64,000 bases of DNA from Naegleria gruberi (lineage: Eukaryota). Below are positions 7,053 through 57,800 of the stretch, piece by piece. The notes under the pieces were generated by a model. The model had not been told where the DNA came from and did not search any database. It was given only the letters and a program-made list of their open reading frames with translations. Position 1 is the first letter of the stretch. The number at the start of each line of letters is the position of its first letter. The translations under genes and the position numbers were made by a program. The stretch lies in assembly GCA_000004985.1 (NCBI GenBank), contig GG738908.1; one strand, given 5' to 3'.

Positions 7053-7124
7053 GGGACCATGGTCTAGTGGTATGATTCTCGCTTTGGGTGCGAGAGGCCG
7101 TGGGTTCGATTCCCACTGGTCCCC
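7053..7124 (+). tRNA. tRNA-Pro (anticodon UGG)
   Basis: A 72-nt cloverleaf: acceptor GGGACCA/TGGTCCC, D-loop AGTGGTA, anticodon loop TTTGGGT, T-arm GTGGG-TTCGATT-CCCAC. Matches the eukaryotic tRNA-Pro consensus ...ATGATTCTCGCTTTGGGTGCGAGAGG.... Confidence 0.85.
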
Positions 7125-7323: not shown

Positions 7324-7396
7324 GGGGTCATGGCGCAGTCGGTAGCGCGTAGGTCTCATAATCCTAAGGTCGTGAGTTCGATCCTCACTGACCCCA
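7324..7396 (+). tRNA. tRNA-Met elongator (anticodon CAU)
   Basis: A 73-nt cloverleaf: GGGGTCA...TGACCCC acceptor, anticodon loop CTCATAA, T-arm GTGAG-TTCGATC-CTCAC. Very close to the eukaryotic elongator tRNA-Met (GCGCAGT.GGTAGCGCGT.GGTCTCATAATC..AAGGTCGTGAGTTCGATCCTCAC). Confidence 0.85.
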
Positions 7397-30536: not shown

Positions 30537-30655
30537 GGCTACGGCCATATCACGATGAATGCACCTCATCCCGTCCGATTTGAGAAGTTAAGCATCGTCG
30601 AGCCACATCAGTACTGAGGTTGGAGACAACTTGGGAACCTGTGGTGCTGTAGTCT
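30537..30655 (+). rRNA. 5S ribosomal RNA gene followed by a T5 Pol III terminator
   Basis: Approximately 119 nt, GGCTACGGCCATATCACGATGAATGCACCTCATCCCGTCCGATTTGAGAAGTTAAGCATCGTCGAGCC...GGGAACCTGTGGTGCTGTAGTC, then TTTTT. Helix I pairs the 5' and 3' ends. Matches the 5S consensus (box A/C region ...AAGTTAAGC...). Confidence 0.85.
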
Positions 30656-42300: not shown

Positions 42301-43636
42301 TTATTTTCTTAAAATTCGGCCTCTGAACAAATCACTATCCAAGAATCGAACATAAATATCCTGAAGTGAATCAGATTCGATATTCTTGATTAATTCAGTA
42401 AAGAGATGAGGGACAGATCCTTCATTCTTGTATCGTTGCATGATGGCTTCTCTCACATTGGAGGCTACATTGAGTTCAGTTGGTGAGTTTGAATTTAAAT
42501 AGGAATCTATAATCTTCTTTGCTAATGCCTTTCGTTTGGTTTCGTTTTGAACTTTCTGATAACAGTGAGCTTCTTCCCAAAACATTAAACTTTCAGCAGC
42601 GTAAATCTTTGTAGAAAATAACTTTAAAACCTTTCTATAATTCTTATCTGCCAAAATCTTTTGAAGTGGAAATTGCTGAGTTAAATCTTGATTTGAAATT
42701 TCTTCAATTTGAGCAGAAAAACAAGAATTTGATTTCTTCTTTGCAGTTTTGAGAATTGGTTCATAAATTGGCTTTACCTCTACAGCAATCTTTTGAAATT
42801 CTGAAATTGTCGTTTCAATATTTTCAGTTCTTGACATTTGACTTGACATTTCGGCAGAAGAATTTACATATTCTGATTGATCTTTCAATAAATCAAACAA
42901 ATCATCACTTCCTTTTCCTTCCAAGTCAAGTAAAACTTCCATAAAATCTGGAACTACATAAACCTTATCATTCAAATGTCTATTTACAATCTTTCCATTT
43001 GCAATTACGAAAGTTGCCGAAAGCTGACTTCTAGATGCTCGCTCAGCTACATAATTAGTCAATTTGTAACCTTGAGAAAGTGCCACTTTCACAGTTTCGA
43101 TGACAACTTTCAGATTATTTGACATGTCAGATGCATTACTGGTCTTGACACCAAATTGTTGGTAATAGTAATTTCCTTCAGGATCTGCAACTCGTAGGAA
43201 TTTACTCATCAATTCTCCTCGTTGGTTCACTTGATTCTTTGTTGAGTTCAGAGTTGGACGAATCTTGTGAAGTTTCGAATTGTTTGTTCGAAAGTGGTTT
43301 TGGCATTCCAGCCCGTGAAAAGAATTCATCTGCCTCTTGCTCACTTTCCTGATGTACAAAAACAGGTATACAGTTTAGTTTAATCAAGCTGGATAAACTA
43401 TTTACAATATCCACAATACTTCTCTGACAGAAAACACATCCAAAATATCGAAGAAACACCAACAAAACAACATGCTTCTTGGAAAGATCAGCAACACTAA
43501 CTCCAATGTTAGTTATCATGGTTTCTAATAAATGATGTGGAAGGCCATTAAGACCAGAAATGTTATTCGAAACTAAATGTTGGTTCTCCGAAGAATCTAT
43601 TGGAGTTGTGAAGGTTTGGATGTTATCTTGTGACAT
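42301..43636 (-). CDS. PRXL2/PAMM-like thioredoxin-fold domain fused to a C-terminal RGS domain; the reading frame is interrupted (a +1 shift near 43205-43300)
   Basis: The upstream ORF (43636..43202) carries a VVLLVFLRYFGCVFCQR CxxC motif like PRXL2A. The overlapping ORF in the +1 frame (43359..42301) continues the same fold (GELMSKF...SATFVIANGKIVNRHLND) and ends with an RGS domain (ESLMFWEEAHCYQ...IIDSYL...IYVRFLDSDLF). I can find no GT..AG intron that reconciles the frames. Confidence 0.5.
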
Positions 43637-43825
43637 TGTGTGTGGTTGTTTTTTTGTGTATGTTGTTGTTCTGAAAATAAGAACGGAGACAGATCGGTAA
43701 AAGTTATTCGAAAGTTCAAGCTGGATTTAATCCACACGTAGAAAAATAATATTTGCCTTAACTCCATACTTGAAGAATGTTTGCTTCAAATTGATGTAGT
43801 AGTATGAGCCAAATTCATAAGTGAA

Positions 43826-44095
43826 ATGAATCAATTAACATCACTTGATGTATACGATAATCAAATTGGTATAGAAGGATCCCAATTCATAAGTGAAATG
43901 ACACAATTAACATCACTTAATATATGTTACAATCAACTAGGTGATGAGGGAGCCAAAATCATAAGTAAAATGACACAACTAACATCACTTGATATATTTA
44001 GCAATGAAATTGGTGATGAGGGAGCCAAATCAATAAGTGAAATGAAACAATTAACATCACTTAATATTGCTGACAATCAGGTTGTTTTCTATTAG
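43826..44095 (+). CDS. RNI-like leucine-rich-repeat fragment (probably an exon of a larger gene, or a gene remnant)
   Basis: Three or four tandem ~28-aa repeats, MTQLTSLNICYNQLGDEGAKIIS. The repeat continues in frame upstream of the first M but is cut by a stop. Confidence 0.35.
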   Translation: MNQLTSLDVYDNQIGIEGSQFISEMTQLTSLNICYNQLGDEGAKIISKMTQLTSLDIFSNEIGDEGAKSISEMKQLTSLNIADNQVVFY

Positions 44096-44282
44096 CGTTG
44101 AATAAAACATGAAAGTTTATTAATGTCTTTCTAAAATGAATTCTTGAGCTCGTGGCACAAACTCTTCTTCTGATCTTGTGTTCTGAGTGTTTAGTTACTC
44201 TTATTATCATTAAAAATTAACAAATTAAAAAAAATATTAAAAAAAAAATTCAATCAATTACACTTGAAACTCTTCCATCATC

Positions 44283-45005
44283 ATGAGTACCAACAACACA
44301 GCTGCAGCATCATCAAATCCAATCGGTAGTGATGAGGATTTATATCTCCGATCATTATTTGCTCACAATTCACCAGAGGCTTGTTCATCATTATTCCGAG
44401 CAGCCAATGAAGAGAAGAAATTAAAAGGAATTGAAGGAGGATTTCATACACTCTATGTTGGATGTTTATTAAAAGTATTGACAAAGGCTAAGGAACCACT
44501 TAATTATTGTTTACCTTCGTTTATTAAAAATCCAGGAACAACAGAAGATGATGAAGAAGCAACCTCTGTTATCAAAATGAAAAAGGTTAATGAATGTATC
44601 GGAATGGATGTAGAAACAACTACACATATTTTGGGAGAATTAGATAGAGTGGTTTCTAGAAAACCAGCTGAAGTTTTGGGACATTTAAATTCTATTAGTA
44701 GTAACTTGAATAGTAATGGCTTGCAAATTAATTCATCAGACTCTGTGGATATGATTAGAAATAAGGTCAAGAGTGCTGTTGAATCTAATTGTATGGATTG
44801 CTTTTCGGAAATTGATGGTTCTCAATCGATAGATTCACAAGCTTACTCCATGTTCAAGTCTCATTTGTGCTTGTTTGCATCTGTTTGTAAGAAACAATTT
44901 CAATCTTGTTTGACAAGCCATACTACACATAGAGGATTTTCAAAATGCTTAGAGGAAAGTGCACAAATGGAATGTTTTAAATTATACAAGGATGTTGAAT
45001 TTTAA
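44283..45005 (+). CDS. hypothetical Cys-containing protein (240 aa)
   Basis: ATG at 44283 opens a clean ORF. No family recognised. Confidence 0.4.
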   Translation: MSTNNTAAASSNPIGSDEDLYLRSLFAHNSPEACSSLFRAANEEKKLKGIEGGFHTLYVGCLLKVLTKAKEPLNYCLPSFIKNPGTTEDDEEATSVIKMKKVNECIGMDVETTTHILGELDRVVSRKPAEVLGHLNSISSNLNSNGLQINSSDSVDMIRNKVKSAVESNCMDCFSEIDGSQSIDSQAYSMFKSHLCLFASVCKKQFQSCLTSHTTHRGFSKCLEESAQMECFKLYKDVEF

Positions 45006-45192
45006 AATTCATATCTAAAATTTTTTAAAGGATTATTTTACAATGAACTACTCAATTTTCTATTTTGGTAAATCATTTTACCAAAAGTAAATTCCGTCTT
45101 AATTAAGAATTAGAGATGCAATATGAATCAAATGTCAGCGCTGAACCGAGCATATTATTCGAATCTTGACCTAATTGTATTTTTTTACAACT

Positions 45193-46341
45193 TTAATGGT
45201 TTGGTTTGGCAGTGTTTGTGGATTGCTCGCTACTGGCATCACTGCACGACGCTGATTCGTTATCTGATGAAGTTGAATCATCTTGTTGCTTCTTTTCATC
45301 TGTTGTAGGCACAGGTTTCTTTCTTCCTCTTGGAATTGATCCAGGTTTTCTAGGTCTACCTCTAGGTCTCTTTGGCAAACTTTGTATTCTCAATTGTTCA
45401 GTTTTAAACGATTCCAAAGTATGCATAGAAAAGTTGCATGTCAATGCTGATTCTGGAGATGGTCTATGCCTTTCATGTTTCGAGCTCTTCTTAACGCCTC
45501 CTGATAATACAGGGATTGGAATTTCCTCTCGTTTTGAACTCGATGAAGATGCCCTGGATTGATGTTTTGAAATAACTGTAGAGGATTGGTTCACATGGTG
45601 GGACGAAACCAAATCAATTGCGTTGGATGCATGTTGTTGATTCATGGAAGGGAATGCTTCTTGATGAGATGTGAGAGCATTTAAATTATTCGAAAGGTTT
45701 AAACTGGTGGAAGCGTGTGTAGCTGAGAATAGAACATTACTACCTGCACTACTTTCATGTTGTTGCTGTTGATTATGTAAAGCATTTTGTAAGAGCTGCG
45801 ATACACTTTCATGAGAAAAATCATCTTCAATAGAGGATTTGTGTCCAATCGAAATTGTTTGCTTTAGTGGGTTGACCACCACATGTGTTGACTCATTGTT
45901 GATGTTCAGCTGTACAGAGGGTTGTTGATGATGTGAAGAAGGTATTGGTAACTTTTCCAAAACCATGTATAATTGAAATAATTGCTCTGGAGAAAGCTCT
46001 TTGAGTAACTTTTCTTGAATGTACTGTAAATTGTTATGTGTTGGAATTTGTTGTTGATGTATATTTGGGGAAGCAGATAATGAAGTGGAAAAGGAAACAT
46101 TGGAATAGGTATTATGGAGATAGTTCTCGGCTAAATGACTTGTAGGTTGTGAAAATTGGTGACTTGGTATAGTAACAGTGTTTTGTTGACTAATAGAAAG
46201 GTGTTGTTGCTGTAAGTTTAAATTAGGTGTTGTTGACTGTGTATTGTTGGCATTGAAGGTGTTAGTATTATTATTACTTGAAATTGGAAAGAGAGAATTA
46301 TTATGCTGAAGTTGATTATTGATGTTATCTCTGGGAATCAT
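45193..46341 (-). CDS. AT-hook-containing Gln/Asn/Ser-rich nuclear protein
   Basis: ATG at 46341. C-terminal KRPRGRPRKPGSIPRGRKKP AT-hook motifs; Q/N/S-rich elsewhere. A paralogous copy lies at 48659..49047. Confidence 0.55.
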   Translation of the reverse strand: MIPRDNINNQLQHNNSLFPISSNNNTNTFNANNTQSTTPNLNLQQQHLSISQQNTVTIPSHQFSQPTSHLAENYLHNTYSNVSFSTSLSASPNIHQQQIPTHNNLQYIQEKLLKELSPEQLFQLYMVLEKLPIPSSHHQQPSVQLNINNESTHVVVNPLKQTISIGHKSSIEDDFSHESVSQLLQNALHNQQQQHESSAGSNVLFSATHASTSLNLSNNLNALTSHQEAFPSMNQQHASNAIDLVSSHHVNQSSTVISKHQSRASSSSSKREEIPIPVLSGGVKKSSKHERHRPSPESALTCNFSMHTLESFKTEQLRIQSLPKRPRGRPRKPGSIPRGRKKPVPTTDEKKQQDDSTSSDNESASCSDASSEQSTNTAKPNH

Positions 46342-47543
46342 GTTTGATGAGATTAGTATTTTGAGAGAAAGAATAGTAATTATTAGACAACCTCTTTGAC
46401 GAACGAAACTAGAAGACTACTTGGGTAGTAGAAAGTTCAGTGCACTGCTTGATGTTGTTTCTCTTTTTTAAATTTTTGCAACACAAACAGATTGCAAAGG
46501 CAATATTGAGAGTGGTGATTAAATCCAGAAAAATACAAAGCGATGTTGGCTTTCTTGTCATAATACGACAAAGAAATCTGCAACCATGTCAGAACGCACT
46601 CCACACAGTTACCTCGATTGTCAGTCTCAATTTTCCTACTCATAAACCACATTGCCAAACAACAAGTTGTAGACTACCAATTACCAATACAGGTGTGGAA
46701 GTTACTCTTCAATCTTCTCATGCAAACAACCAAGAAGAAAAATACCTTTAATTCTTAACAATGCTAACATGGTGTCTATCTTCATTTTGTAAATTGTGGG
46801 CCAACCAGATCTTTTGATAACTATTGGAAGCTGGTAGACACTTAATTACGTGTGGGTTGCAATATAGCCAATTGGTTTTGGGGAGGGATTCTTTCATTGC
46901 CACACTTTAGTGTTACGGTTACTGGACTCAATAAATACATATATGTAAATATGTAGGAGGTCCATATTTACTGTTTAAGTTGGCAACACGTCAAGATATG
47001 TCACCGAAGCCCAATACCGCTTACCTGTTAGTATTTTCCAATCCAAGTTGTAGGATGTAAAACAAGTATGACTAAGGTTGACAGGAATCTCCTGCTCCTA
47101 CTACCGAGCTCATTTCGCATTTGCATTAACTTTAAACATCATCTAAGGCAACCTTCATTTCTAACGGCTGTATTCGAAAGCGATTCATTTCTCCCACTGA
47201 ACTTGCTCCCTTCCTTAAACTTCAACTACTTCTAATAATCGATTCAAATTACATCCAAATATGACTATGAAAGTTGGTTCAAGAATAATTTACTAGTTGA
47301 GTTTCCTTTTCAAACTTCTTTTCTCTTGTCTAAATTCTCAATATGGAGAAATTACTCATCAATTTTTATTCCCTACCTCAGGTATTATTAAGAATGTTGT
47401 AACATCAAAATGGCTTCATATGTTTAGAGTTTGGTTCAACAATATCTGAAGATGACCAAAAATTATCCATTAAACAACTCAAAGTTCCTAGCTCTGCAAT
47501 TTGAATATATAAGAAGAGATGCATCATAATTATATTGAGGAAT
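46342..47543. repeat. copy 1 (more diverged) of a ~1 kb conserved non-coding element upstream of the AT-hook gene
   Basis: Conserved blocks (gtgggccaaccag, ggggagggattctttcattg, ttggcaacacgtcaagatatgtcac, cgcttacctgtt, catctaaggcaacc, aacatccaaatatgactatgaaagttggttc) are shared with 49048-50358 and 50409-51333. It ends in agaagagatgcatcataattatattgaggaat just before the N gap. Confidence 0.6.
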
Positions 47544-48658
47544 NNNNNNNNNNNNNNNNNNNNNNNNNNNNNNNNNNNNNNNNNNNNNNNNNNNNNNNNN
47601 NNNNNNNNNNNNNNNNNNNNNNNNNNNNNNNNNNNNNNNNNNNNNNNNNNNNNNNNNNNNNNNNNNNNNNNNNNNNNNNNNNNNNNNNNNNNNNNNNNNN
47701 NNNNNNNNNNNNNNNNNNNNNNNNNNNNNNNNNNNNNNNNNNNNNNNNNNNNNNNNNNNNNNNNNNNNNNNNNNNNNNNNNNNNNNNNNNNNNNNNNNNN
47801 NNNNNNNNNNNNNNNNNNNNNNNNNNNNNNNNNNNNNNNNNNNNNNNNNNNNNNNNNNNNNNNNNNNNNNNNNNNNNNNNNNNNNNNNNNNNNNNNNNNN
47901 NNNNNNNNNNNNNNNNNNNNNNNNNNNNNNNNNNNNNNNNNNNNNNNNNNNNNNNNNNNNNNNNNNNNNNNNNNNNNNNNNNNNNNNNNNNNNNNNNNNN
48001 NNNNNNNNNNNNNNNNNNNNNNNNNNNNNNNNNNNNNNNNNNNNNNNNNNNNNNNNNNNNNNNNNNNNNNNNNNNNNNNNNNNNNNNNNNNNNNNNNNNN
48101 NNNNNNNNNNNNNNNNNNNNNNNNNNNNNNNNNNNNNNNNNNNNNNNNNNNNNNNNNNNNNNNNNNNNNNNNNNNNNNNNNNNNNNNNNNNNNNNNNNNN
48201 NNNNNNNNNNNNNNNNNNNNNNNNNNNNNNNNNNNNNNNNNNNNNNNNNNNNNNNNNNNNNNNNNNNNNNNNNNNNNNNNNNNNNNNNNNNNNNNNNNNN
48301 NNNNNNNNNNNNNNNNNNNNNNNNNNNNNNNNNNNNNNNNNNNNNNNNNNNNNNNNNNNNNNNNNNNNNNNNNNNNNNNNNNNNNNNNNNNNNNNNNNNN
48401 NNNNNNNNNNNNNNNNNNNNNNNNNNNNNNNNNNNNNNNNNNNNNNNNNNNNNNNNNNNNNNNNNNNNNNNNNNNNNNNNNNNNNNNNNNNNNNNNNNNN
48501 NNNNNNNNNNNNNNNNNNNNNNNNNNNNNNNNNNNNNNNNNNNNNNNNNNNNNNNNNNNNNNNNNNNNNNNNNNNNNNNNNNNNNNNNNNNNNNNNNNNN
48601 NNNNNNNNNNNNNNNNNNNNNNNNNNNNNNNNNNNNNNNNNNNNNNNNNNNNNNNNNN
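47544..48658. other. assembly gap (1115 N)
   Basis: Run of N. ORFs predicted inside it are artefacts. Confidence 0.95.
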
Positions 48659-49047
48659 GCTTGATGTTGTAGTAGGTTGTGTGCGCGATTTTGTGTAGTA
48701 ACAACGTTTTGTTGATTAATCGAAAGGTGTTGTTGCTGTAAGTTGTCTATAGTTGAGAACATGTTGCTATTCAACATGTGATGGAGAGGATTCTGTGAGG
48801 ATTGCATGAAACTGGACGAATCACTATTACTCGTTGAAGAACTATTTACACTATTTGTCAACTCTGACCGAATGTCAAATAAGGAGTTTAAACCTTGTGA
48901 TTGTATAAATGTTAAATTAGATGTTATTGACTGTGTATTATTGGCATTGAAGGAGTTTGGATTATTACTGCTTGAAATTGGAAAGAGAGAATTATTCTGC
49001 TGCTTATGTTGATTATTACTATTGATGTTGTTATCTCTGGGAAACAT
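48659..49047 (-). CDS. 5' portion of a second AT-hook-family paralog; the rest lies in the gap
   Basis: ATG at 49047. The N-terminus MFPRDNNINSNNQHKQQNNSLFPISS... parallels MIPRDNINNQLQHNNSLFPISS... of the 46341 gene. Confidence 0.5.
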
Positions 49048-50358
49048 GTTTGATGAGATTACAGAAAGGTAGTAGGAAATCTGCTTTAAAAACTAAATTA
49101 CCTTCTCTCAACCTCTTGGAAGAACGAAACTAGAAGAAACACTCGAGTAGTAGAAAGAGTTCAGTGTTTGATGTTGTTTCTTTTTAATATTTTTGCACCA
49201 CAAACAAGATTGCAAAGGCAATCTGAGCGACGTCTTTTGATGAAATCCAGAAATATACAAAGCGATGGTGGCTTTAATTCCAAAGTAATCTCAACTTCCA
49301 ACCCTGTCATTACGCACTCCACATAGTTACCCCAATGGTCAGTCTCAATTTTCCAACTCAGAAACAAAAAATATAGCCAGAACAAGTTTAAGACAGGTTG
49401 ATGTTACTCGTCGATCTTTTCTCAAGCAAAACAACCGAGAAATAACTTTAATTCTTAACAATGCTGGTCTGTGCGAACATGATTTCTGTTTTATCCAAAT
49501 GAAAGAGATTGTGGGCCAACCAGCTCTCTCTATAACTATTGGAAGCAGTTAGAGTAAATTCAATTGGATTGGCAAGCTTTCATCTTTCATTAAAAATCTT
49601 AAGAGTCCGAGTTTCGTACATGTAAAATCAATGATGAACCTTTCTTAATTGTTCAGAGCAATCGTGGCTACGTAGTCACTGGGTTTTGGGGAGGGATTCT
49701 TTCATTGTCACATATAGTGCTACTGAAATATAGGAAAGTGGTCCTTATTTACTAATAAGTTGGCAATACGTCAGGACATGTCACAGAATCCTAATAACGC
49801 TTACCTGTTGGAATTTCCAGAAACTGTAGGGCGTAAAAAAGCATGACAATGGTTGACAAGGATTCTCCTCCTATTACTGAGCTTTCGTTTCGCAACACGA
49901 ATCAATAGCATTGACTTTAAACATCATCTAAGGCAACCCGCATATCTAACAGCTGAATTGGAATGTATTCCCTCCCACCACAGAACATACTACCTTCCTT
50001 AAACCTCAACTACTTCTAATAATCAAATAACATCCAAATATGACTATGAAAGTTGGTTCTGAATTGTTCAAGGAGAATCCAAGTTGAGTTACCTTTTTAA
50101 ACTTCTTTTCCTTCATTTTCATTCAGCAAATTGGGTATCACTGGAGAAAAGTTGTTTTGGTCTTGTCTCAATAATGGAGAAATTACTTTATTATTCCCAA
50201 ACTTCAGTTATTACCAAGATTGTTTAACGTCCTTATTACTTCAATTGTAATTCTTCGTTGGCTTGTCTAGCTTCCATCAATTGTTGTTTAACCATCATTA
50301 ATTGGATTTTGAACGGGAAATGGTGTCTCTTACGATTCTTTAATAGCCATCTCTTCTT
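49048..50358. repeat. copy 2 of the conserved non-coding element (upstream region of the second AT-hook paralog)
   Basis: Long near-identical stretches with copy 3 and blockwise ~80% identity with copy 1. Confidence 0.6.
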
Positions 50359-50408
50359 NNNNNNNNNNNNNNNNNNNNNNNNNNNNNNNNNNNNNNNNNN
50401 NNNNNNNN
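50359..50408. other. assembly gap (50 N) between two tandem element copies
   Basis: Run of N. Confidence 0.95.
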
Positions 50409-51333
50409 CAAGCAAAACAACTGAGAAATAACTTTATTCTTAACAATGCTGGTCTGTGCGAACATGATTTCTGTTTTATCCAAATGAAAGAGATTGTGGG
50501 CCAACCAGCTATCTCTATAACCTCATCATGATAACTATTGGAAGCAGTTAGAGTAAATTCAATTGGATTGGCAAGCTTTCACGTAGTCACTGGGTTTTGG
50601 GGAGGGATTCTTTCATTGTCACATATAGTGCTACTGAAATATAGGAAAGTGGTCCTTATTTACTAATAAGTTGGCAATACGTCAGGATATGTCACAGAAT
50701 CCTAATATCGCTTACCTGTTGGAATTTCCAGAAACTGTAGGACGTAAAAAAGCATGACAATGGTTGACAAGGATCCTCCTCCTATTACTGAGCTTTCGTT
50801 TCGCAACACGAATCAATAGCATTGACTTTAAACATCATCTAAGGCAACCTTCATATCTAACAGCTGAATTGGAATGTATTCCCTCCCACCACAGAACATG
50901 CTACCTTCCTTAAACCTCAACTACTTCTAATAATCAAATAACATCCAAATATGACTATGAAAGTTGGTTCTGAATTGTTCAAGGAGAATCCAAGTTGAGT
51001 TACCTTTTTAAACTTCTTTTCCTTCATTTTCATTCAGCAAATTGGGTATCACTGGAGAAAAGTTGTTTTGGTCTTGTCTCAATAATGGAGAAATTACTTT
51101 ATTACCAATTTTATTCCCAAACTTCAGTTATTACCAAGATTGTTTAACGTCCTTATTACTTCAATTGTAATTCTTCGTTGGCTTGTCTAGCTTCCATCAA
51201 TTGTTGTTTAACCATCATTAATTGGATTTTGAACGGGAAATGGTGTCTCTTACGATTCTTTAATAGCCATCTCTTCTTGTAATTCCTTGTATAAAACAAA
51301 AATTAAACAAACAGATTGTCCTAGAATTGCAAT
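50409..51333. repeat. copy 3 of the conserved non-coding element, in tandem with copy 2
   Basis: Nearly identical to 49424-50358 apart from a ~100-bp deletion and a small insertion. Continues into the 3' flank of the 7TM gene. Confidence 0.6.
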
Positions 51334-51357
51334 TTGATTAGAAGAGATGCATCATAA

Positions 51358-52678
51358 TTATATTGAGGAATTGATAGAATCATTGTGGTTGCTTAGTAGT
51401 GATGGAGAGGAGAGACCAAGATCATCTGCTGAGGGAGAAGTTGGTGAAACACAAACAATGGCATCTTGTCCATTAATTGGGCCATTAATCATTAATTCCT
51501 GTGGCTCGTCATGAGGTGAAGTGTCTGCGAACGAGGAAGCCAATGTGTTGCTATTTGCAATTTCCCTAGCTGTTTTTAAGGTTGTGGTCTTGTTATTATA
51601 GAAGGTCATTGTTTTGATTGCCTCTTCTGCATGGATAAACATTGGATAAAACATGGACATGCTCAGGGAGGAGCAGACGAGCACTGAAAAACTTGTTGAA
51701 ACTTGCCAAACAATTTTCACAACAGTATTTTCTGATCCACCAACAAGTGTGGCCACTCCTCCAGCAACTATATGGAGAAATACGCTCAATACCATGGCAC
51801 TAATCAGTAGAATAGTGATAAGAAATGGATTGACCTGTCTTTTTACAAATCCTTTCTGTTGTAAAGGTTCTATGTGTGCAATGGAGAGTCTGTGAGTATT
51901 TCTCTTAATTGCCTTAATGACGACAATACCAGACCAAAGGGTGAAAACAGCTTTGAATACTAACATGCAAGATACCACAGCGAATATAACACTATTCGAA
52001 ATTGTAATTGGTGTCTGAGGCAAAATGTCCATCAAGTGAAGGAAATGAAATAGAGAAACAACTGAAACAATAATGAACATGGAGAAGGAAAATAGCCCAG
52101 TGATCACGTACAATCCCTTCTTTAAATTATTGGCCAACTTGGCTGAAAGAGCTTTCGCCCGATATGAAGAATTCAAACTATTTCAATAATAAAATTGGAA
52201 ATGATTAGATGTTGTTAATAAATTACCTTCTCCTTACTTACAATATAGTCTGTACATAACTAATAATCACAAACAAGGTTACAAAACTCAACAACAAAAC
52301 ATAATCAGATGCAGTTGACAACAAGGCATAAACCACATACAGAGCTTTCGTAATATGAAACCCTTCCTCCATTTTCATTCTCAATTCAATCACTACAAAA
52401 TCTGAAACAATCCTCACCACAATATTCACCATCTGAATGCTCATAAATACCGAATTCAGAATGAAGAATTTCTTGGCATTCGTTGACAATCGAATCTTTT
52501 TTAAATGATTCAAGAGAGAAACCAATGCCACACAACAAGCAATGAAACTTGCCAGGAAACCAAATTCAATTCCAATGGAAATACCACTCACTCCAATCGG
52601 AGCAAAATGATCTAAAGAAGTTATATTGACAAAATTTCTTCCGAATTCATCTTTATAAAAGTTAATGTGCTCCGCCAT
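51358..52678 (-). CDS. seven-transmembrane (GPCR-like) membrane protein, 2 exons: join(51358..52177,52242..52678)
   Basis: A 64-nt intron (GTAAGT...AATAG on the minus strand, plus coordinates 52178-52241) joins the two ORFs in frame (...VQTI|F|LNSSYRA...). Seven hydrophobic helices with a Ser/Thr-rich cytoplasmic tail. Confidence 0.5.
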
Positions 52679-53035
52679 TATTATTTGATAATGATGGCTG
52701 TTCAGGTCTTTTTTGTTTTGTTCAGAGATGCAGAAATTACATGATTACCTTCTTGTTTACAATTTTACTTAATAATTGTTGTTGATTGGGAGAGAAAAGA
52801 AGAAGTTTGCTGGGTGTAATCGTTTTGCGCGCTTAAACCTGCCGTTAATCTTTTATTTCAAAAATAAAATTGATAAATAAAAAATATATTTATAAATCAA
52901 TCCCAAAGAAAACCTTCTTTCATGATGATGAGAGAAATATTTTCTCAAGACTGCTTTTTCTCTCCGAGAAAATTATCTTTCGCTCCAGCATGGAAAGTAG
53001 AAAGCCTTCAATCTCCAGGTTGAATTTCTTCCTTT

Positions 53036-54712
53036 ATGCTAACAATTGAATCAAAACTCAACAAAACAAAATACACAACAATATCATCCCTTTCAATGTC
53101 CTTTAATTCATCTTCATCATCAACATCATCATCATCATTGCAAAATAATTCCACAATTGTGTACACGAACATGAATCAATTAAATATTGATATTCTCGAG
53201 TATGTGTTTGAATTTATTCCGAGAGGAATGGACAGGAGGAGAATAACACTGGTCAACAAGGCTTTTCACGATTCCAGATACTTGCTGGAGAAACATGAAA
53301 TGGCTCGGATGTGGCACGATGAGAATACTTGTCTTTTAAATCCTCTCGTGGAAGAAGTGGTGAGTGAAGAAGAATTGGAGACGAAACAGGAAGAATTACA
53401 AATTGCCATACCTTTCCATTTGAAATGGTTTGTAACTGGCTTTACGAATGGTAGAAAGGCATGGTCTAATTCTGTTGTGCATGTTAGTAATTTGTTGGGA
53501 CCTGTCAAATCTTGGAAAATGGACACACAGAATGGTTATGTAGTGTTGGGAGTTGATACTCAATTCTCGAACATGTTAACATTGAGTAGGGATGGAAGGA
53601 TTAGAGTGAATAGAGACACGGTTGACTTTTTTGATTTTGTAACGATGGTAAATCGTCCATTGAATCCAGAATTTTACAATTTTGAAAAGTTTAAAGAAAG
53701 AGTGTACTTCCCCTTCTCAATGACTAAGGGATTTTATAGTATTTTGCCAGACAAGTACAAGTTTGTGGACAGGTTGACCATGCATGCTATTGAATTGGAT
53801 CCAAAATGTTATACTTATGTTCCAGATTATATCAAGAGGATGAAACATATTGCCAAGAAGGTGTTTATTAGAAATCCATCCTTGGGCAGATTAATTCCAA
53901 AAGAAATTTTGGAAGATACAGATTTTGTTATGGATATTTACAAATCATCACAATCAATTCTGTTTTATGCTTCTCCTAAAGGAAAATGGTGGAGTGATAG
54001 GGGTTTTATGATTGAGGCATTGAAGCGTGATGTATGTTTAATAAGAAACTGTTCTGAGGAAATACGGACTGATAGAGAAATTATTGACATGATTATTGAC
54101 ATTGATGCAGCAAGTTCTTTTCAATATATTGGAAAATTCAAGGAAGACGAAGATATTGTGAAAACGGCACTATTTAAATCAAACTTCAAGATTCTGCATT
54201 ATATCAATAGTGATTTTCTACTTAATAATAGAGAACTAGTTCTCACAATACTGAAAAGTAATGGAAAGTATATTAACGAAATGCCAGAGTCAATCAAAAA
54301 GGATAGAGAATGCTTTTTCCTAGCTGCAAGAACGCCTTATTTCACATACAAAGTTCAATCTCTTTACAAAATAATAGAGAGTGACAGAGAGGATTTCAAA
54401 TCAATTCTGCAATTTAATCCGGACCTTTTGGAGAAGACCATTTTCAAACACGACAGAGAGCTCCTTAAAGAGGCTCTTTCACACAGTGGATATTGTCTCA
54501 GATTTGCAAGTGAAGAATTCAAGGCAGATAAGGAACTTGTTTTGACAGCCGTAACAAACAATGGATCTGCCCTAATGTATGCTTCTCCAAAACTCAAAGA
54601 TTGTGAAGAGGTTGTCTTGGCAGCTGTAATGAATAATGGAAAAGCAATTCGCTTTGCTTCAAAGAGATTATCATCCAATCAGAAAATTATCAAATCAAGA
54701 AAGTTAAAGTAA
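53036..54712 (+). CDS. DUF4116-type repeat protein with an F-box-like N-terminal motif
   Basis: ATG at 53036. LNIDILEYVFEFIPRGMDRRRITLVNKAF resembles an F-box. C-terminal tandem ~38-aa repeats ...DKELVLTAVTNNGSALMYASPKLKDCEEVVLAAVMNNGKAIRFASKRL fit the DUF4116 pattern. Confidence 0.55.
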   Translation: MLTIESKLNKTKYTTISSLSMSFNSSSSSTSSSSLQNNSTIVYTNMNQLNIDILEYVFEFIPRGMDRRRITLVNKAFHDSRYLLEKHEMARMWHDENTCLLNPLVEEVVSEEELETKQEELQIAIPFHLKWFVTGFTNGRKAWSNSVVHVSNLLGPVKSWKMDTQNGYVVLGVDTQFSNMLTLSRDGRIRVNRDTVDFFDFVTMVNRPLNPEFYNFEKFKERVYFPFSMTKGFYSILPDKYKFVDRLTMHAIELDPKCYTYVPDYIKRMKHIAKKVFIRNPSLGRLIPKEILEDTDFVMDIYKSSQSILFYASPKGKWWSDRGFMIEALKRDVCLIRNCSEEIRTDREIIDMIIDIDAASSFQYIGKFKEDEDIVKTALFKSNFKILHYINSDFLLNNRELVLTILKSNGKYINEMPESIKKDRECFFLAARTPYFTYKVQSLYKIIESDREDFKSILQFNPDLLEKTIFKHDRELLKEALSHSGYCLRFASEEFKADKELVLTAVTNNGSALMYASPKLKDCEEVVLAAVMNNGKAIRFASKRLSSNQKIIKSRKLK

Positions 54713-54768: not shown

Positions 54769-57700
54769 NNNNNNNNNNNNNNNNNNNNNNNNNNNNNNNN
54801 NNNNNNNNNNNNNNNNNNNNNNNNNNNNNNNNNNNNNNNNNNNNNNNNNNNNNNNNNNNNNNNNNNNNNNNNNNNNNNNNNNNNNNNNNNNNNNNNNNNN
54901 NNNNNNNNNNNNNNNNNNNNNNNNNNNNNNNNNNNNNNNNNNNNNNNNNNNNNNNNNNNNNNNNNNNNNNNNNNNNNNNNNNNNNNNNNNNNNNNNNNNN
55001 NNNNNNNNNNNNNNNNNNNNNNNNNNNNNNNNNNNNNNNNNNNNNNNNNNNNNNNNNNNNNNNNNNNNNNNNNNNNNNNNNNNNNNNNNNNNNNNNNNNN
55101 NNNNNNNNNNNNNNNNNNNNNNNNNNNNNNNNNNNNNNNNNNNNNNNNNNNNNNNNNNNNNNNNNNNNNNNNNNNNNNNNNNNNNNNNNNNNNNNNNNNN
55201 NNNNNNNNNNNNNNNNNNNNNNNNNNNNNNNNNNNNNNNNNNNNNNNNNNNNNNNNNNNNNNNNNNNNNNNNNNNNNNNNNNNNNNNNNNNNNNNNNNNN
55301 NNNNNNNNNNNNNNNNNNNNNNNNNNNNNNNNNNNNNNNNNNNNNNNNNNNNNNNNNNNNNNNNNNNNNNNNNNNNNNNNNNNNNNNNNNNNNNNNNNNN
55401 NNNNNNNNNNNNNNNNNNNNNNNNNNNNNNNNNNNNNNNNNNNNNNNNNNNNNNNNNNNNNNNNNNNNNNNNNNNNNNNNNNNNNNNNNNNNNNNNNNNN
55501 NNNNNNNNNNNNNNNNNNNNNNNNNNNNNNNNNNNNNNNNNNNNNNNNNNNNNNNNNNNNNNNNNNNNNNNNNNNNNNNNNNNNNNNNNNNNNNNNNNNN
55601 NNNNNNNNNNNNNNNNNNNNNNNNNNNNNNNNNNNNNNNNNNNNNNNNNNNNNNNNNNNNNNNNNNNNNNNNNNNNNNNNNNNNNNNNNNNNNNNNNNNN
55701 NNNNNNNNNNNNNNNNNNNNNNNNNNNNNNNNNNNNNNNNNNNNNNNNNNNNNNNNNNNNNNNNNNNNNNNNNNNNNNNNNNNNNNNNNNNNNNNNNNNN
55801 NNNNNNNNNNNNNNNNNNNNNNNNNNNNNNNNNNNNNNNNNNNNNNNNNNNNNNNNNNNNNNNNNNNNNNNNNNNNNNNNNNNNNNNNNNNNNNNNNNNN
55901 NNNNNNNNNNNNNNNNNNNNNNNNNNNNNNNNNNNNNNNNNNNNNNNNNNNNNNNNNNNNNNNNNNNNNNNNNNNNNNNNNNNNNNNNNNNNNNNNNNNN
56001 NNNNNNNNNNNNNNNNNNNNNNNNNNNNNNNNNNNNNNNNNNNNNNNNNNNNNNNNNNNNNNNNNNNNNNNNNNNNNNNNNNNNNNNNNNNNNNNNNNNN
56101 NNNNNNNNNNNNNNNNNNNNNNNNNNNNNNNNNNNNNNNNNNNNNNNNNNNNNNNNNNNNNNNNNNNNNNNNNNNNNNNNNNNNNNNNNNNNNNNNNNNN
56201 NNNNNNNNNNNNNNNNNNNNNNNNNNNNNNNNNNNNNNNNNNNNNNNNNNNNNNNNNNNNNNNNNNNNNNNNNNNNNNNNNNNNNNNNNNNNNNNNNNNN
56301 NNNNNNNNNNNNNNNNNNNNNNNNNNNNNNNNNNNNNNNNNNNNNNNNNNNNNNNNNNNNNNNNNNNNNNNNNNNNNNNNNNNNNNNNNNNNNNNNNNNN
56401 NNNNNNNNNNNNNNNNNNNNNNNNNNNNNNNNNNNNNNNNNNNNNNNNNNNNNNNNNNNNNNNNNNNNNNNNNNNNNNNNNNNNNNNNNNNNNNNNNNNN
56501 NNNNNNNNNNNNNNNNNNNNNNNNNNNNNNNNNNNNNNNNNNNNNNNNNNNNNNNNNNNNNNNNNNNNNNNNNNNNNNNNNNNNNNNNNNNNNNNNNNNN
56601 NNNNNNNNNNNNNNNNNNNNNNNNNNNNNNNNNNNNNNNNNNNNNNNNNNNNNNNNNNNNNNNNNNNNNNNNNNNNNNNNNNNNNNNNNNNNNNNNNNNN
56701 NNNNNNNNNNNNNNNNNNNNNNNNNNNNNNNNNNNNNNNNNNNNNNNNNNNNNNNNNNNNNNNNNNNNNNNNNNNNNNNNNNNNNNNNNNNNNNNNNNNN
56801 NNNNNNNNNNNNNNNNNNNNNNNNNNNNNNNNNNNNNNNNNNNNNNNNNNNNNNNNNNNNNNNNNNNNNNNNNNNNNNNNNNNNNNNNNNNNNNNNNNNN
56901 NNNNNNNNNNNNNNNNNNNNNNNNNNNNNNNNNNNNNNNNNNNNNNNNNNNNNNNNNNNNNNNNNNNNNNNNNNNNNNNNNNNNNNNNNNNNNNNNNNNN
57001 NNNNNNNNNNNNNNNNNNNNNNNNNNNNNNNNNNNNNNNNNNNNNNNNNNNNNNNNNNNNNNNNNNNNNNNNNNNNNNNNNNNNNNNNNNNNNNNNNNNN
57101 NNNNNNNNNNNNNNNNNNNNNNNNNNNNNNNNNNNNNNNNNNNNNNNNNNNNNNNNNNNNNNNNNNNNNNNNNNNNNNNNNNNNNNNNNNNNNNNNNNNN
57201 NNNNNNNNNNNNNNNNNNNNNNNNNNNNNNNNNNNNNNNNNNNNNNNNNNNNNNNNNNNNNNNNNNNNNNNNNNNNNNNNNNNNNNNNNNNNNNNNNNNN
57301 NNNNNNNNNNNNNNNNNNNNNNNNNNNNNNNNNNNNNNNNNNNNNNNNNNNNNNNNNNNNNNNNNNNNNNNNNNNNNNNNNNNNNNNNNNNNNNNNNNNN
57401 NNNNNNNNNNNNNNNNNNNNNNNNNNNNNNNNNNNNNNNNNNNNNNNNNNNNNNNNNNNNNNNNNNNNNNNNNNNNNNNNNNNNNNNNNNNNNNNNNNNN
57501 NNNNNNNNNNNNNNNNNNNNNNNNNNNNNNNNNNNNNNNNNNNNNNNNNNNNNNNNNNNNNNNNNNNNNNNNNNNNNNNNNNNNNNNNNNNNNNNNNNNN
57601 NNNNNNNNNNNNNNNNNNNNNNNNNNNNNNNNNNNNNNNNNNNNNNNNNNNNNNNNNNNNNNNNNNNNNNNNNNNNNNNNNNNNNNNNNNNNNNNNNNNN

Positions 57701-57800
57701 NNNNNNNNNNNNNNNNNNNNNNNNNNNNNNNNNNNNNNNNNNNNNNNNNNNNNNNNNNNNNNNNNNNNNNNNNNNNNNNNNNNNNNNNNNNNNNNNNNNN
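54769..57800. other. assembly gap (3032 N)
   Basis: Run of N. The flanking ORFs of X are artefacts. Confidence 0.95.

What the first reader, a model, noticed from the sequence alone, without database searches (positions are those of the whole stretch)
45193..52678. Tandem segmental duplication: paralogous AT-hook genes separated by three copies of a ~1 kb element, broken by assembly gaps
The unit is [AT-hook gene on minus][~1 kb upstream element][7TM gene 3' end]. It recurs: 45193-47543 ends in agaagagatgcatcataattatattgaggaat exactly as 51334-51365 does beside the 7TM gene, and a second AT-hook paralog starts at 49047. The element is present three times: copy 1 at 46342-47543, then copies 2 and 3 in direct tandem at 49048-50358 and 50409-51333. 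The gaps fall exactly at repeat boundaries. That suggests collapsed or unresolved repeats, and further copies may exist.
Basis: seen in the sequence. Interest (0 to 1): 0.6.

Follow-up and report, generated by a model that had tools for sequence, protein, structure and literature searches.

The report
Old gene duplication plus assembly artefact
In this draft Naegleria gruberi scaffold an AT-hook gene and its upstream region exist in two old, diverged versions, while the supposed third "element" copy is most likely the same DNA assembled twice from the two parental chromosomes on either side of a gap, so the finding is ordinary.

Summary
The window is a gapped Sanger-era scaffold of Naegleria gruberi NEG-M. 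The self-similarity is real but falls into two classes. (1) Copy 1 (46342-47543) and the 5' end of AT-hook gene A match copy 2/3 and the 5' end of AT-hook gene B at only ~72-75% with many indels, so this is an old duplication. (2) "Copy 3" (50409-51278) matches the end of "copy 2" (49423-50358) with 9 SNPs and 4 indels. The match starts at the first base after the 50-N gap and ends at the last base before it. This is the signature of two overlapping contig ends carrying different alleles ("duplicated overlapping contigs"), not a tandem copy. So there are two element lineages, not three. The "element" is plain intergenic DNA: no ORF, RNA family, terminal repeats or other copies. The missing 3' half of gene B, including its AT-hook, probably sits on an unplaced 1,567-bp scaffold (XP_002668056). 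An independent metagenome contig shows element 1 running directly into an intact 7TM gene. That gene differs from the window's 7TM at synonymous sites about 9-fold more than the neighbouring genes do. This favours a two-gene tandem duplication with one 7TM copy lost in gap 1. Divergent haplotypes stacked in the scaffold cannot be excluded. Interest is low.

The parts
44283..45005 (+). Gene X, the conserved single-copy left flank of the duplicated block
   Evidence: 240-aa ORF, identical to a NEG-M predicted protein. Orthologues in N. lovaniensis, N. fowleri and Willaertia, and no second NEG-M copy. L001 is identical over its 3' 291 nt.
45193..46341 (-). AT-hook gene A (XP_002671142, NAEGRDRAFT_73875), intronless, 382 aa, Q/N/S-rich
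   Evidence: ORF; 100% match; motif KRPRGRPRKPGS at residues 324-335; no Pfam family reaches threshold.
46342..47511 (.). 'Element copy 1': intergenic DNA between AT-hook A (its 5' side) and the 3' end of a 7TM gene
   Evidence: ~75% identical to 49048-50358/51279-51339 with 368 gap columns. 99% SNP identity to independent contig L001. No Rfam family or tRNA, no terminal repeats.
47512..47543 (-). Last 32 nt of the A contig: 3' UTR, stop codon and last codons of a 7TM gene; identical to 51340-51371
   Evidence: Exact 32/32 match. In L001 the same sequence continues into an intact 7TM gene.
47544..48658 (.). Gap 1 (1115 N): hides the 3' ~2/3 of AT-hook B and, if the unit is fully duplicated, a second 7TM gene
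   Evidence: P0003 (XP_002668056, 266 aa, on a 1,567-bp unplaced scaffold) is a B-type C-terminal half, 77-83% identical to A.
48659..49047 (-). AT-hook gene B, 5' 129 codons (open to the gap edge), with a ~55-codon insertion relative to A
   Evidence: DNA 82% / 72% identical to 46142-46341.
49048..50358 (.). 'Element copy 2': B-type intergenic region, allele 1. Its last 936 nt (49423-50358) overlap the next contig.
50359..50408 (.). Gap 2: a 50-N placeholder between two overlapping contig ends
   Evidence: It is the only round-number gap of the three in the window.
50409..51357 (.). 'Element copy 3': the same B-type intergenic region, allele 2 (50409-51278 overlaps 49423-50358), continuing to the 7TM stop codon
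   Evidence: 9 SNPs in 847 aligned bases plus indels of 1, 14, 88 and 9 nt, all in the interior of the overlap.
51358..52678 (-). 7TM-like membrane protein gene (XP_002671143, NAEGRDRAFT_73876): exon 1 52678-52242, intron 52241-52178, exon 2 52177-51358
   Evidence: The spliced product is 100% identical to P0001. Six strong and one weaker hydrophobic segments. Seven long helices in a low-confidence model. No Pfam family.
53036..54712 (+). DUF4116-repeat gene, the right flank (not duplicated)
   Evidence: Pfam PF13475, E 6.5e-50.

Best explanation
This is a lineage-specific, old tandem duplication in Naegleria gruberi, overlaid by two assembly problems. The duplicated unit is [AT-hook gene + its ~1.2 kb upstream intergenic region + the adjacent 7TM gene, or at least its 3' end], all on the minus strand. 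There are two diverged versions, A and B.

Problem 1: the B-type intergenic region is heterozygous (about 1% SNPs plus indels up to 88 bp). The assembler built the two alleles as separate contig ends, and the scaffolder laid them side by side across a 50-N placeholder. That creates a false 'third copy'. The real sequence has one B-type element.

Problem 2: where the A and B units become nearly identical, starting ~20 nt 3' of the 7TM stop codon, the A contig stops. The remainder fell into gap 1: a second 7TM copy (or a remnant of one) and the 3' two-thirds of AT-hook B. Part of it was left as an unplaced 1,567-bp scaffold.

Shown: the identity classes, the exact gap-edge overlap, the B-type C-terminal half on an orphan scaffold, and the el1-7TM adjacency in an independent contig. 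Inferred: that the A and B units lie on the same chromosome; that a 7TM-A copy exists in NEG-M; and that gene conversion keeps the 7TM copies 93-100% identical while their neighbours are ~72-75%.
For: (a) Organism and assembly: proteins are 100% identical to N. gruberi NEG-M predicted proteins on a 259-kb scaffold. Naegleria is described as mainly a heterozygous diploid (PMC9928731).

(b) Copy 2 vs copy 3: the alignment runs from the first base after the 50-N gap to the last base before it, with 9 SNPs in 847 bases and 4 indels, all interior, and an identical 168-nt tail. This fits the DOC artefact definition, and 80-97% of DOCs were errors in three WGS assemblies (PMC2864568). The divergence equals the strain-level divergence seen for the A unit (24 mismatches in 2837).

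(c) A vs B: 72-82% DNA identity over coding and non-coding sequence alike. B's ORF is open for 129 codons. P0003 supplies an intact B-type C-terminus with the AT-hook.

(d) L001, an independent ENA metagenome contig, is collinear with X, AT-hook A and el1, and continues into an intact 7TM gene.

(e) That 7TM differs from the window's 7TM with dS 0.076 over the 3' 735 nt, against dS 0.008 in AT-hook A and 0 in X, falling to 0 beyond ~52100. So two 7TM lineages exist, one linked to el1 and one linked to el3.

(f) If B has two alleles (el2 and el3), then in a diploid A cannot also be an allele of B, which favours paralogy.

(g) No X' copy exists in the proteome.

(h) The block is absent next to X in N. 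lovaniensis, N. fowleri and a third Naegleria, and neither protein has homologues outside N. gruberi, so it is a young, lineage-specific region.
Against: The estimated size of gap 1 (1115) is 1.5-2 kb too small to hold a full 7TM gene plus the rest of gene B.

No second 7TM protein is annotated anywhere in NEG-M. That search also missed L001's 7TM fragment, so its recall is imperfect.

The jump from ~75% to 100% identity within a few bases at 47512/51340 needs gene conversion or a recombination boundary to explain it. It is equally what a heterozygous bubble would give.

L001 comes from another strain, so its el1-7TM adjacency need not hold in NEG-M.

No read-level data (depth, mate pairs) could be examined, and the DNA of the 1,567-bp scaffold could not be retrieved.
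Confidence: 0.58

Rival explanations
1. Stacked hyperdivergent haplotypes. A and B are not paralogues but two extremely divergent alleles (~72-75% identity) of one locus, each flanked by the same X gene and the same 7TM gene. The scaffolder linearised both arms of the heterozygous bubble in tandem, so the 'segmental duplication' is entirely an assembly artefact.
For: Both el1 (in L001 and at the A contig tip) and el3 abut a 7TM gene, yet only one 7TM gene is assembled or annotated. The A contig ends 32 nt after A and B become identical, as at a graph fork. Divergence between the el1-linked and el3-linked 7TM decays with distance from the core (dS 0.076 to 0), as expected beside a recombination-suppressed allele pair. 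The size of gap 1 does not fit a full second unit. NEG-M is heterozygous.
Against: It needs three distinct haplotypes (el1, el2, el3) if el2 and el3 are alleles, which is incompatible with simple diploidy. Otherwise it needs a real el2-el3 tandem in addition. Allelic divergence of ~25% plus indels over >3 kb is about 25 times the allelic level seen here (~1%). No divergent X' fragment is annotated on the orphan scaffold. The left-hand convergence was never observed.
Confidence: 0.15
2. One reading: three genuine copies of the ~1 kb element, with copies 2 and 3 a real, very recent tandem duplication (or part of a larger, nearly identical repeat unit hidden in the 50-N gap), and possibly more collapsed copies.
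For: Contigs also break at the boundaries of real high-identity tandem repeats. There is weak T/C-rich microhomology between the sequence preceding 49423 (..gatcttttct) and the end of the unit (..catctcttctt). Sequence alone cannot exclude extra material in the gap.
Against: The assembler did separate the two versions, so reads spanning a real copy 2 / copy 3 junction should have joined the contigs without a gap. The gap is a 50-N placeholder, whereas the other gaps carry estimated sizes. The differences are confined to the interior, with identical ends. The base rate of DOCs being errors is 80-97%. No extra AT-hook or 7TM proteins exist in the proteome.
Confidence: 0.1
3. Mis-scaffolding of a dispersed paralogue. 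The B contig(s) (48659-50358, and perhaps 50409 onward) belong to a paralogous locus elsewhere in the genome and were pulled into this scaffold by similarity or ambiguous mate pairs. The true local order is X - A - el1 - 7TM, as in L001.
For: L001 shows X - A - el1 - 7TM with nothing in between. Gap sizes are inconsistent. The region is at a synteny breakpoint.
Against: el3 is contiguous with the 7TM gene and the DUF4116 gene within one contig (50409-54768). The B 5' contig overlaps el3 at allele-level identity, so B is physically linked to this 7TM. Only the link between the A contig and the rest would then be in doubt, and that link is supported by the 32-nt identity and by L001.
Confidence: 0.1
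4. The ~1 kb element is a mobile element or a non-coding RNA gene that has inserted three times.
For: Three exact 25-30-mers are conserved among all copies against a ~75% background.
Against: There are no terminal inverted or direct repeats, no conserved ORF, and no Rfam or tRNA hit. There are no copies elsewhere in the 64-kb window and none in JGI metagenomes. The homology continues seamlessly into the flanking AT-hook coding sequence, so the element has no boundaries of its own.
Confidence: 0.02

Closest known systems
Duplicated overlapping contigs (DOCs): false segmental duplications caused by haplotype divergence in diploid WGS assemblies (Kelley & Salzberg 2010, PMC2864568; also Ko et al. 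2022, PMC9516828)
   Same: Two neighbouring contigs of one scaffold, separated by a gap, align only at their facing ends, in the same orientation, at allele-level identity with SNPs and indels. The organism is a heterozygous diploid assembled from Sanger shotgun reads. An unplaced small scaffold holds related sequence.
   Different: The mate-pair and read-depth evidence that formally defines a mis-assembled DOC could not be examined here. The artefact sits inside a genuine older duplication, which is probably why the region assembled badly.
Lineage-specific tandem gene duplication with partial homogenisation by gene conversion
   Same: Two direct-orientation units of the same gene order. Coding and non-coding sequence are about equally diverged (~72-82%). 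Mosaic blocks of very high identity occur: 7TM 93-100%, and a 53-aa block of the AT-hook protein with 1 difference. Both AT-hook copies keep open reading frames.
   Different: Linkage of A and B on one chromosome, and the existence of the second 7TM copy in NEG-M, are inferred rather than seen. The genes are orphans with no family outside N. gruberi.
AT-hook DNA-binding proteins (HMGA-type motif)
   Same: AT-hook A and P0003 carry KRPRGRPRKPGS, the canonical R-G-R-P core flanked by basic residues, followed by a second RGRKK stretch and an acidic, serine-rich tail.
   Different: There is a single motif in a long Q/N/S-rich, low-complexity protein. No Pfam profile reaches threshold, and no homology to HMGA or other AT-hook families. 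DNA binding is untested.
Idiomorph-like / hyperdivergent haplotype loci (e.g. fungal mating-type idiomorphs)
   Same: Two very dissimilar sequences, each encoding a putative DNA-binding protein, both abut the same flanking gene, with a sharp boundary between dissimilar and near-identical sequence. The organism is heterozygous and has a meiotic toolkit (PMC9928731).
   Different: A and B are clearly homologous (true idiomorphs usually are not). Three sequence versions are present, not two. The left boundary is unseen, and there is no evidence of one version per haplotype.

Membership tests
Haplotype-induced false duplication (duplicated overlapping contigs) | Two adjacent contigs of the same scaffold, separated by a gap, whose facing ends align to each other in the same orientation | tested here: met
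   49423-50358 (ending at the gap) aligns to 50409-51278 (starting at the gap).
Haplotype-induced false duplication (duplicated overlapping contigs) | Allele-level divergence (high identity, SNPs plus indels), with homozygous sequence at the opposite ends | tested here: met
   9 SNPs in 847 bases (1.06%) and 4 indels. The first difference is at offset +13 and the last at 50190, followed by 168 identical bases. This is comparable to the 0.85% between NEG-M and L001.
Haplotype-induced false duplication (duplicated overlapping contigs) | Heterozygous diploid source genome | not testable with these tools
   [quoted passage not shown] No reads are available.
Haplotype-induced false duplication (duplicated overlapping contigs) | Mate-pair distances and read depth are more consistent when the contigs are merged | not testable with these tools
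   No read data. The 50-N round-number gap, against 1115 and 3032 elsewhere, is only suggestive.
True tandem segmental duplication (A and B units) | Two homologous units in direct orientation, adjacent in the sequence | tested here: met
   Self-BLAST, all on the same strand; both AT-hook ORFs are on the minus strand.
True tandem segmental duplication (A and B units) | Both units on the same DNA molecule (not alleles, not mis-scaffolded) | not testable with these tools
   The units are joined only across the 1115-N gap. L001 ends inside the 7TM gene.
True tandem segmental duplication (A and B units) | The unit includes the 7TM gene, i.e. two 7TM copies exist | tested here: inconclusive
   Only 32 nt of a 7TM 3' end is visible after el1. 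L001 shows a full 7TM there in a related strain, with dS 0.076 against the window's 7TM. No second 7TM protein is in the proteome, and the gap size is too small.
Transposable / mobile element (for the ~1 kb 'element') | Own termini (TIR/LTR) or target-site duplications, coding capacity, and copies at unrelated loci | tested here: not met
   Only weak 20-25-nt, 74-85% inverted matches. No conserved ORF. No other copies in the window. The homology continues into the AT-hook coding sequence.
AT-hook protein | R-G-R-P core flanked by K/R residues | tested here: met
   KRPRGRPRKPGS at residues 324-335 of A and in P0003. It is not visible in the window part of B.
AT-hook protein | Match to a curated profile | tested here: not met
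   No AT_hook hit in Pfam even at E<=10. Short motif models rarely pass HMMER's filters.
Seven-transmembrane receptor (GPCR-like) | Seven membrane-spanning helices | tested here: inconclusive
   Six Kyte-Doolittle segments at or above 1.6, plus a weaker seventh. Seven long helices in an AF2 model of pLDDT 45.
Seven-transmembrane receptor (GPCR-like) | Homology to a known 7TM/GPCR family | tested here: not met
   No Pfam family. The only database hit is the protein itself.

The most novel reading that the evidence does not exclude
A and B are not paralogues but two ancient, hyperdivergent alleles (~25% nucleotide divergence, large indels) of a single locus. Each encodes an AT-hook DNA-binding protein with its own promoter region, and they are kept apart by suppressed recombination between sharply bounded shared flanks. 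This would be an idiomorph-like, possibly mating-type-related locus in a heterozygous amoeba whose sex has never been observed.
Probability: 0.1. Interest if true: 0.6.

Novelty: new member of a known kind. Interest (0 to 1): 0.14.

Why it matters
Mostly as a caution. In this reference scaffold one apparent repeat copy is probably haplotype redundancy. One gene (AT-hook B) is split between the scaffold and an orphan 1.5-kb scaffold and is annotated only as a truncated protein. A second 7TM gene may be missing altogether. Anyone counting gene families, repeats or segmental duplications in N. gruberi NEG-M would mis-score this locus.

Biologically it is an ordinary lineage-specific duplication of two orphan genes at a synteny breakpoint. 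Only if A and B turned out to be allelic would it be of wider interest, as a candidate hyperdivergent or mating-type-like locus in Naegleria.

Tried and rejected
1. Retrieving the NEG-M record and the 1,567-bp orphan scaffold by exact-protein look-up failed: N. gruberi is not in that index.

2. JGI metagenome scans for further Naegleria loci found nothing. One used a protein alignment, for which the tool chose low-complexity patterns; the other used a conserved 23-mer of the element.

3. Rfam (E<=1) and ARAGORN over 44000-53500 found nothing, so the ncRNA idea was rejected.

4. The inverted-repeat scan for transposon termini found only weak chance-level matches, so the mobile-element idea was rejected.

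5. Pfam at E<=10 gave no credible family for the 7TM or AT-hook proteins. The RAP hit (16 bits against a cut-off of 24) is noise in a low-complexity region.

6. The AlphaFold single-sequence model of the 7TM protein had pLDDT 45, too poor for a fold search, so none was run.

7. Synteny in N. lovaniensis, N. fowleri and L004 was examined to find an ancestral single-copy state. The block is simply absent there, so it dates nothing beyond 'N. gruberi lineage'.

8. The Fritz-Laylin 2010 genome paper is not held, so the assembler's gap conventions and NEG-M heterozygosity figures could not be quoted directly.

9. I first treated 'the alignment ends exactly at the gap edges' as proof of overlap, then downgraded it. 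An alignment cannot extend past a contig end, so this is necessary but not sufficient. The interior-only distribution of differences, the placeholder gap and the published base rate carry the argument.

Full report
**What the window is.** The sequence is a eukaryotic draft scaffold with 35% G+C and three runs of N, at 47544-48658 (1115), 50359-50408 (50) and 54769-57800 (3032). The spliced product of the minus-strand membrane-protein gene (exon 1 52678-52242, a 64-nt GTAAGT..AG intron, exon 2 52177-51358) is 100% identical to Naegleria gruberi XP_002671143. The ORF 45193-46341(-) is 100% identical to XP_002671142. Both lie on a 259,034-bp NEG-M scaffold. Neither protein has any relative outside N. 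gruberi in a 5.8-billion-protein search.

**Checking the observation.** They fall into two very different classes.

- Copy 1 and the 5' end of AT-hook gene A (46142-47323, 47469-47543) match copies 2/3 and the 5' end of a second ORF (48672-49553, 49673-50110, 50423-51021, 51302-51371) at 71-82% identity. A four-way alignment gives 75% identity in aligned columns with 368 gap columns, spread evenly along the element.
- Copy 2 (49423-50358) matches copy 3 (50409-51278) with only 9 SNPs in 847 aligned bases, plus indels of 1, 14, 88 and 9 nt.

Small corrections follow. The part of gene B present in the window (129 codons, 48659-49047) has no AT-hook. Only the left edge of gap 1 is at a similarity boundary.

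**Copy 3 is most likely not a copy.** The copy 2 / copy 3 alignment begins at the first base after the 50-N gap and ends at the last base before it. That alone is necessary rather than sufficient, because an alignment cannot run past a contig end. Four further points carry the argument.

- All differences lie in the interior, from 13 nt after the right contig's start to position 50190, followed by 168 identical bases up to the left contig's end. This is the geometry of a heterozygous bubble: each contig carries one arm plus a little shared sequence.
- The SNP divergence (1.06%) equals the allele or strain-level divergence measured independently for the A unit against contig L001 (24 mismatches in 2837 bases, 0.85%).
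- The gap is a round 50, whereas the other two gaps carry estimated sizes.
- The assembler did tell the two versions apart, so reads crossing a real copy 2 / copy 3 junction should have joined the contigs.

The pattern is what Kelley & Salzberg call duplicated overlapping contigs. In their three shotgun assemblies 80-97% of such pairs were mis-assemblies caused by haplotype differences (PMC2864568). Naegleria is described as mainly a heterozygous diploid, with heterozygosity reported for N. gruberi itself (PMC9928731). I put this part at about 0.85.

**The 'element' is intergenic DNA, not a discrete element.**

- Homology between A and B runs without a break from the AT-hook coding sequence through the whole upstream region.
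- There is no conserved ORF, no Rfam family at E<=1 and no tRNA.
- There are no terminal repeats and no copy elsewhere in the 64 kb at DNA or protein level.
- A conserved 23-mer has no match in JGI metagenomes.
- Three exact 25-30-mers survive in all versions and may be regulatory blocks. I did not follow them up.

**Where the rest of gene B is.** The search with AT-hook A returned one further NEG-M protein, P0003 (XP_002668056, 266 aa), on an unplaced 1,567-bp scaffold. It starts at the residue aligning to M126 of A and runs to the same C-terminus, including KRPRGRPRKPGS. It is 77-83% identical to A, in a mosaic pattern: one difference in the first 53 residues, about 60% identity in the middle, and about 89% over the last 90. 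This is the expected 3' part of gene B, truncated by the gene modeller at the first Met. So both AT-hook genes appear intact, but B is split between the scaffold and an orphan contig.

**Independent evidence across gap 1.** The 90% cluster of AT-hook A contains a second member from an ENA metagenome assembly. Its 3,860-bp contig, L001, could be fetched. L001 is collinear with the window from inside gene X through AT-hook A and element 1 (98.06% including indels). It then continues, where the window has Ns, straight into an intact 7TM gene that aligns to the window's only 7TM gene at 94.4%.

A Nei-Gojobori analysis shows that this 7TM is not simply the orthologue of the window's 7TM. Synonymous divergence is 0.076 (dN 0.045) over the 3' 735 nt, against 0.008 in AT-hook A and 0 in X. 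It falls to 0 from ~52100 into exon 1. Two 7TM lineages therefore exist, one attached to el1 and one to el3. They are nearly identical at their 5' ends, 4-7% apart at their 3' ends, and abut intergenic DNA that is ~25% diverged. The switch occurs within a few bases, ~20 nt 3' of the stop codon, and 32 nt later the A contig ends.

**Interpretation.** Two models explain this.

Model T (favoured, about 0.58 for the whole statement) is an old tandem duplication of [AT-hook + upstream region + 7TM]. The 7TM copies are partly homogenised by gene conversion. The near-identity made the assembler stop the A contig, so the second 7TM (or a remnant of it) and the rest of B fell into gap 1.

Model H (about 0.15) holds that A and B are hyperdivergent alleles of one locus sharing one 7TM, with both bubble arms laid in tandem by the scaffolder.

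For T:
- If el2 and el3 are alleles, B already has two haplotypes, and a diploid has no room for A as a third.
- A ~25% allelic divergence would be about 25 times the allelic level seen here.
- No divergent copy of the left-flank gene X exists in the proteome.

Against T:
- Gap 1 is estimated at 1115 bp, whereas a full 7TM plus the rest of B needs about 2.5-3 kb.
- No second 7TM protein is annotated. That search also failed to return L001's 7TM fragment, which is in the collection, so this negative is soft.

A mobile element gets about 0.02.

**Context.** Gene X is conserved and single-copy in N. lovaniensis, N. fowleri, Willaertia and an uncultured Naegleria. In those genomes X is followed directly by an HSP70/HYOU1 gene, with no trace of the AT-hook gene, the 7TM gene or the element. 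In the window the neighbouring RGS gene is inverted relative to N. lovaniensis. The duplicated block therefore sits at a lineage-specific synteny breakpoint and consists of orphan genes.

**What the genes are.** AT-hook A is a 382-aa Q/N/S-rich protein whose only recognisable feature is one canonical AT-hook core, with a second RGRKK and an acidic tail. No Pfam model reaches threshold. The membrane protein has six strong and one weaker hydrophobic segments. A low-confidence AlphaFold model (pLDDT 45) shows seven long helices. It has no family assignment. '7TM' is plausible but 'GPCR' is untested.

**Verdict.** This is an ordinary feature of a heterozygous Sanger-era draft. Its main value is as an annotation warning. 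A Nanopore assembly of N. gruberi exists (PMC12695648) and would settle copy number and linkage at once. The only reading of wider interest is an idiomorph-like hyperdivergent locus encoding a DNA-binding protein in a cryptically sexual amoeba. It is not excluded, but it is unlikely (about 0.1).

Noticed in passing
window 46874-46899, 47129-47153, 47251-47280 (and 49682/50593, 49914/50825, 50030/50941): Three exact 25-30-nt blocks are conserved in el1, L001, el2 and el3 against a ~75% identity background. They are candidate cis-regulatory motifs upstream of the AT-hook genes.
   Followed up: partly
window 45193-45512; L001 3060-3381: 7 of the 8 coding differences between NEG-M AT-hook A and the L001 copy cluster in the 3' 320 nt. 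At 4 of the 6 amino-acid differences L001 carries the residue of the B-type protein P0003. This may be an A/B gene-conversion tract.
   Followed up: partly
window 42301-45005 vs L002/L003/L004: Synteny breakpoint at gene X. In N. lovaniensis, N. fowleri and an uncultured Naegleria, X is followed by HSP70/HYOU1. In N. gruberi it is followed by orphan genes, and the RGS gene is on the other side and inverted.
   Followed up: partly
window 43806-44079: A 72-bp (24-aa) tandem array, 3.6 copies at 82% identity, encoding RNase-inhibitor-type leucine-rich repeats (..MTQLTSLDI..NQIGDEGAK..).
   Followed up: no
window 30537-30655; 7053-7124; 7324-7396: A 5S rRNA gene (105 bits) and two tRNA genes 200 nt apart, all on the plus strand.
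   Followed up: no
window 53036-54712 and gap 54769-57800: A 558-aa protein with five DUF4116 repeats (E 6.5e-50) lies next to a 3,032-N gap. The gap flanks show no similarity to each other, so this gap is not an overlap artefact.
   Followed up: partly
L001 394-1062 (P0010): The word-indexed protein search with the NEG-M 7TM protein did not return this ~91%-identical 222-aa fragment, although it is in the collection. Negative results from that tool should be treated as soft.
   Followed up: yes
window 48745-48911: AT-hook B carries a ~165-nt (55-codon) serine/asparagine-rich insertion relative to A, near the N-terminus. The paralogues are diverging by low-complexity expansion.
   Followed up: no
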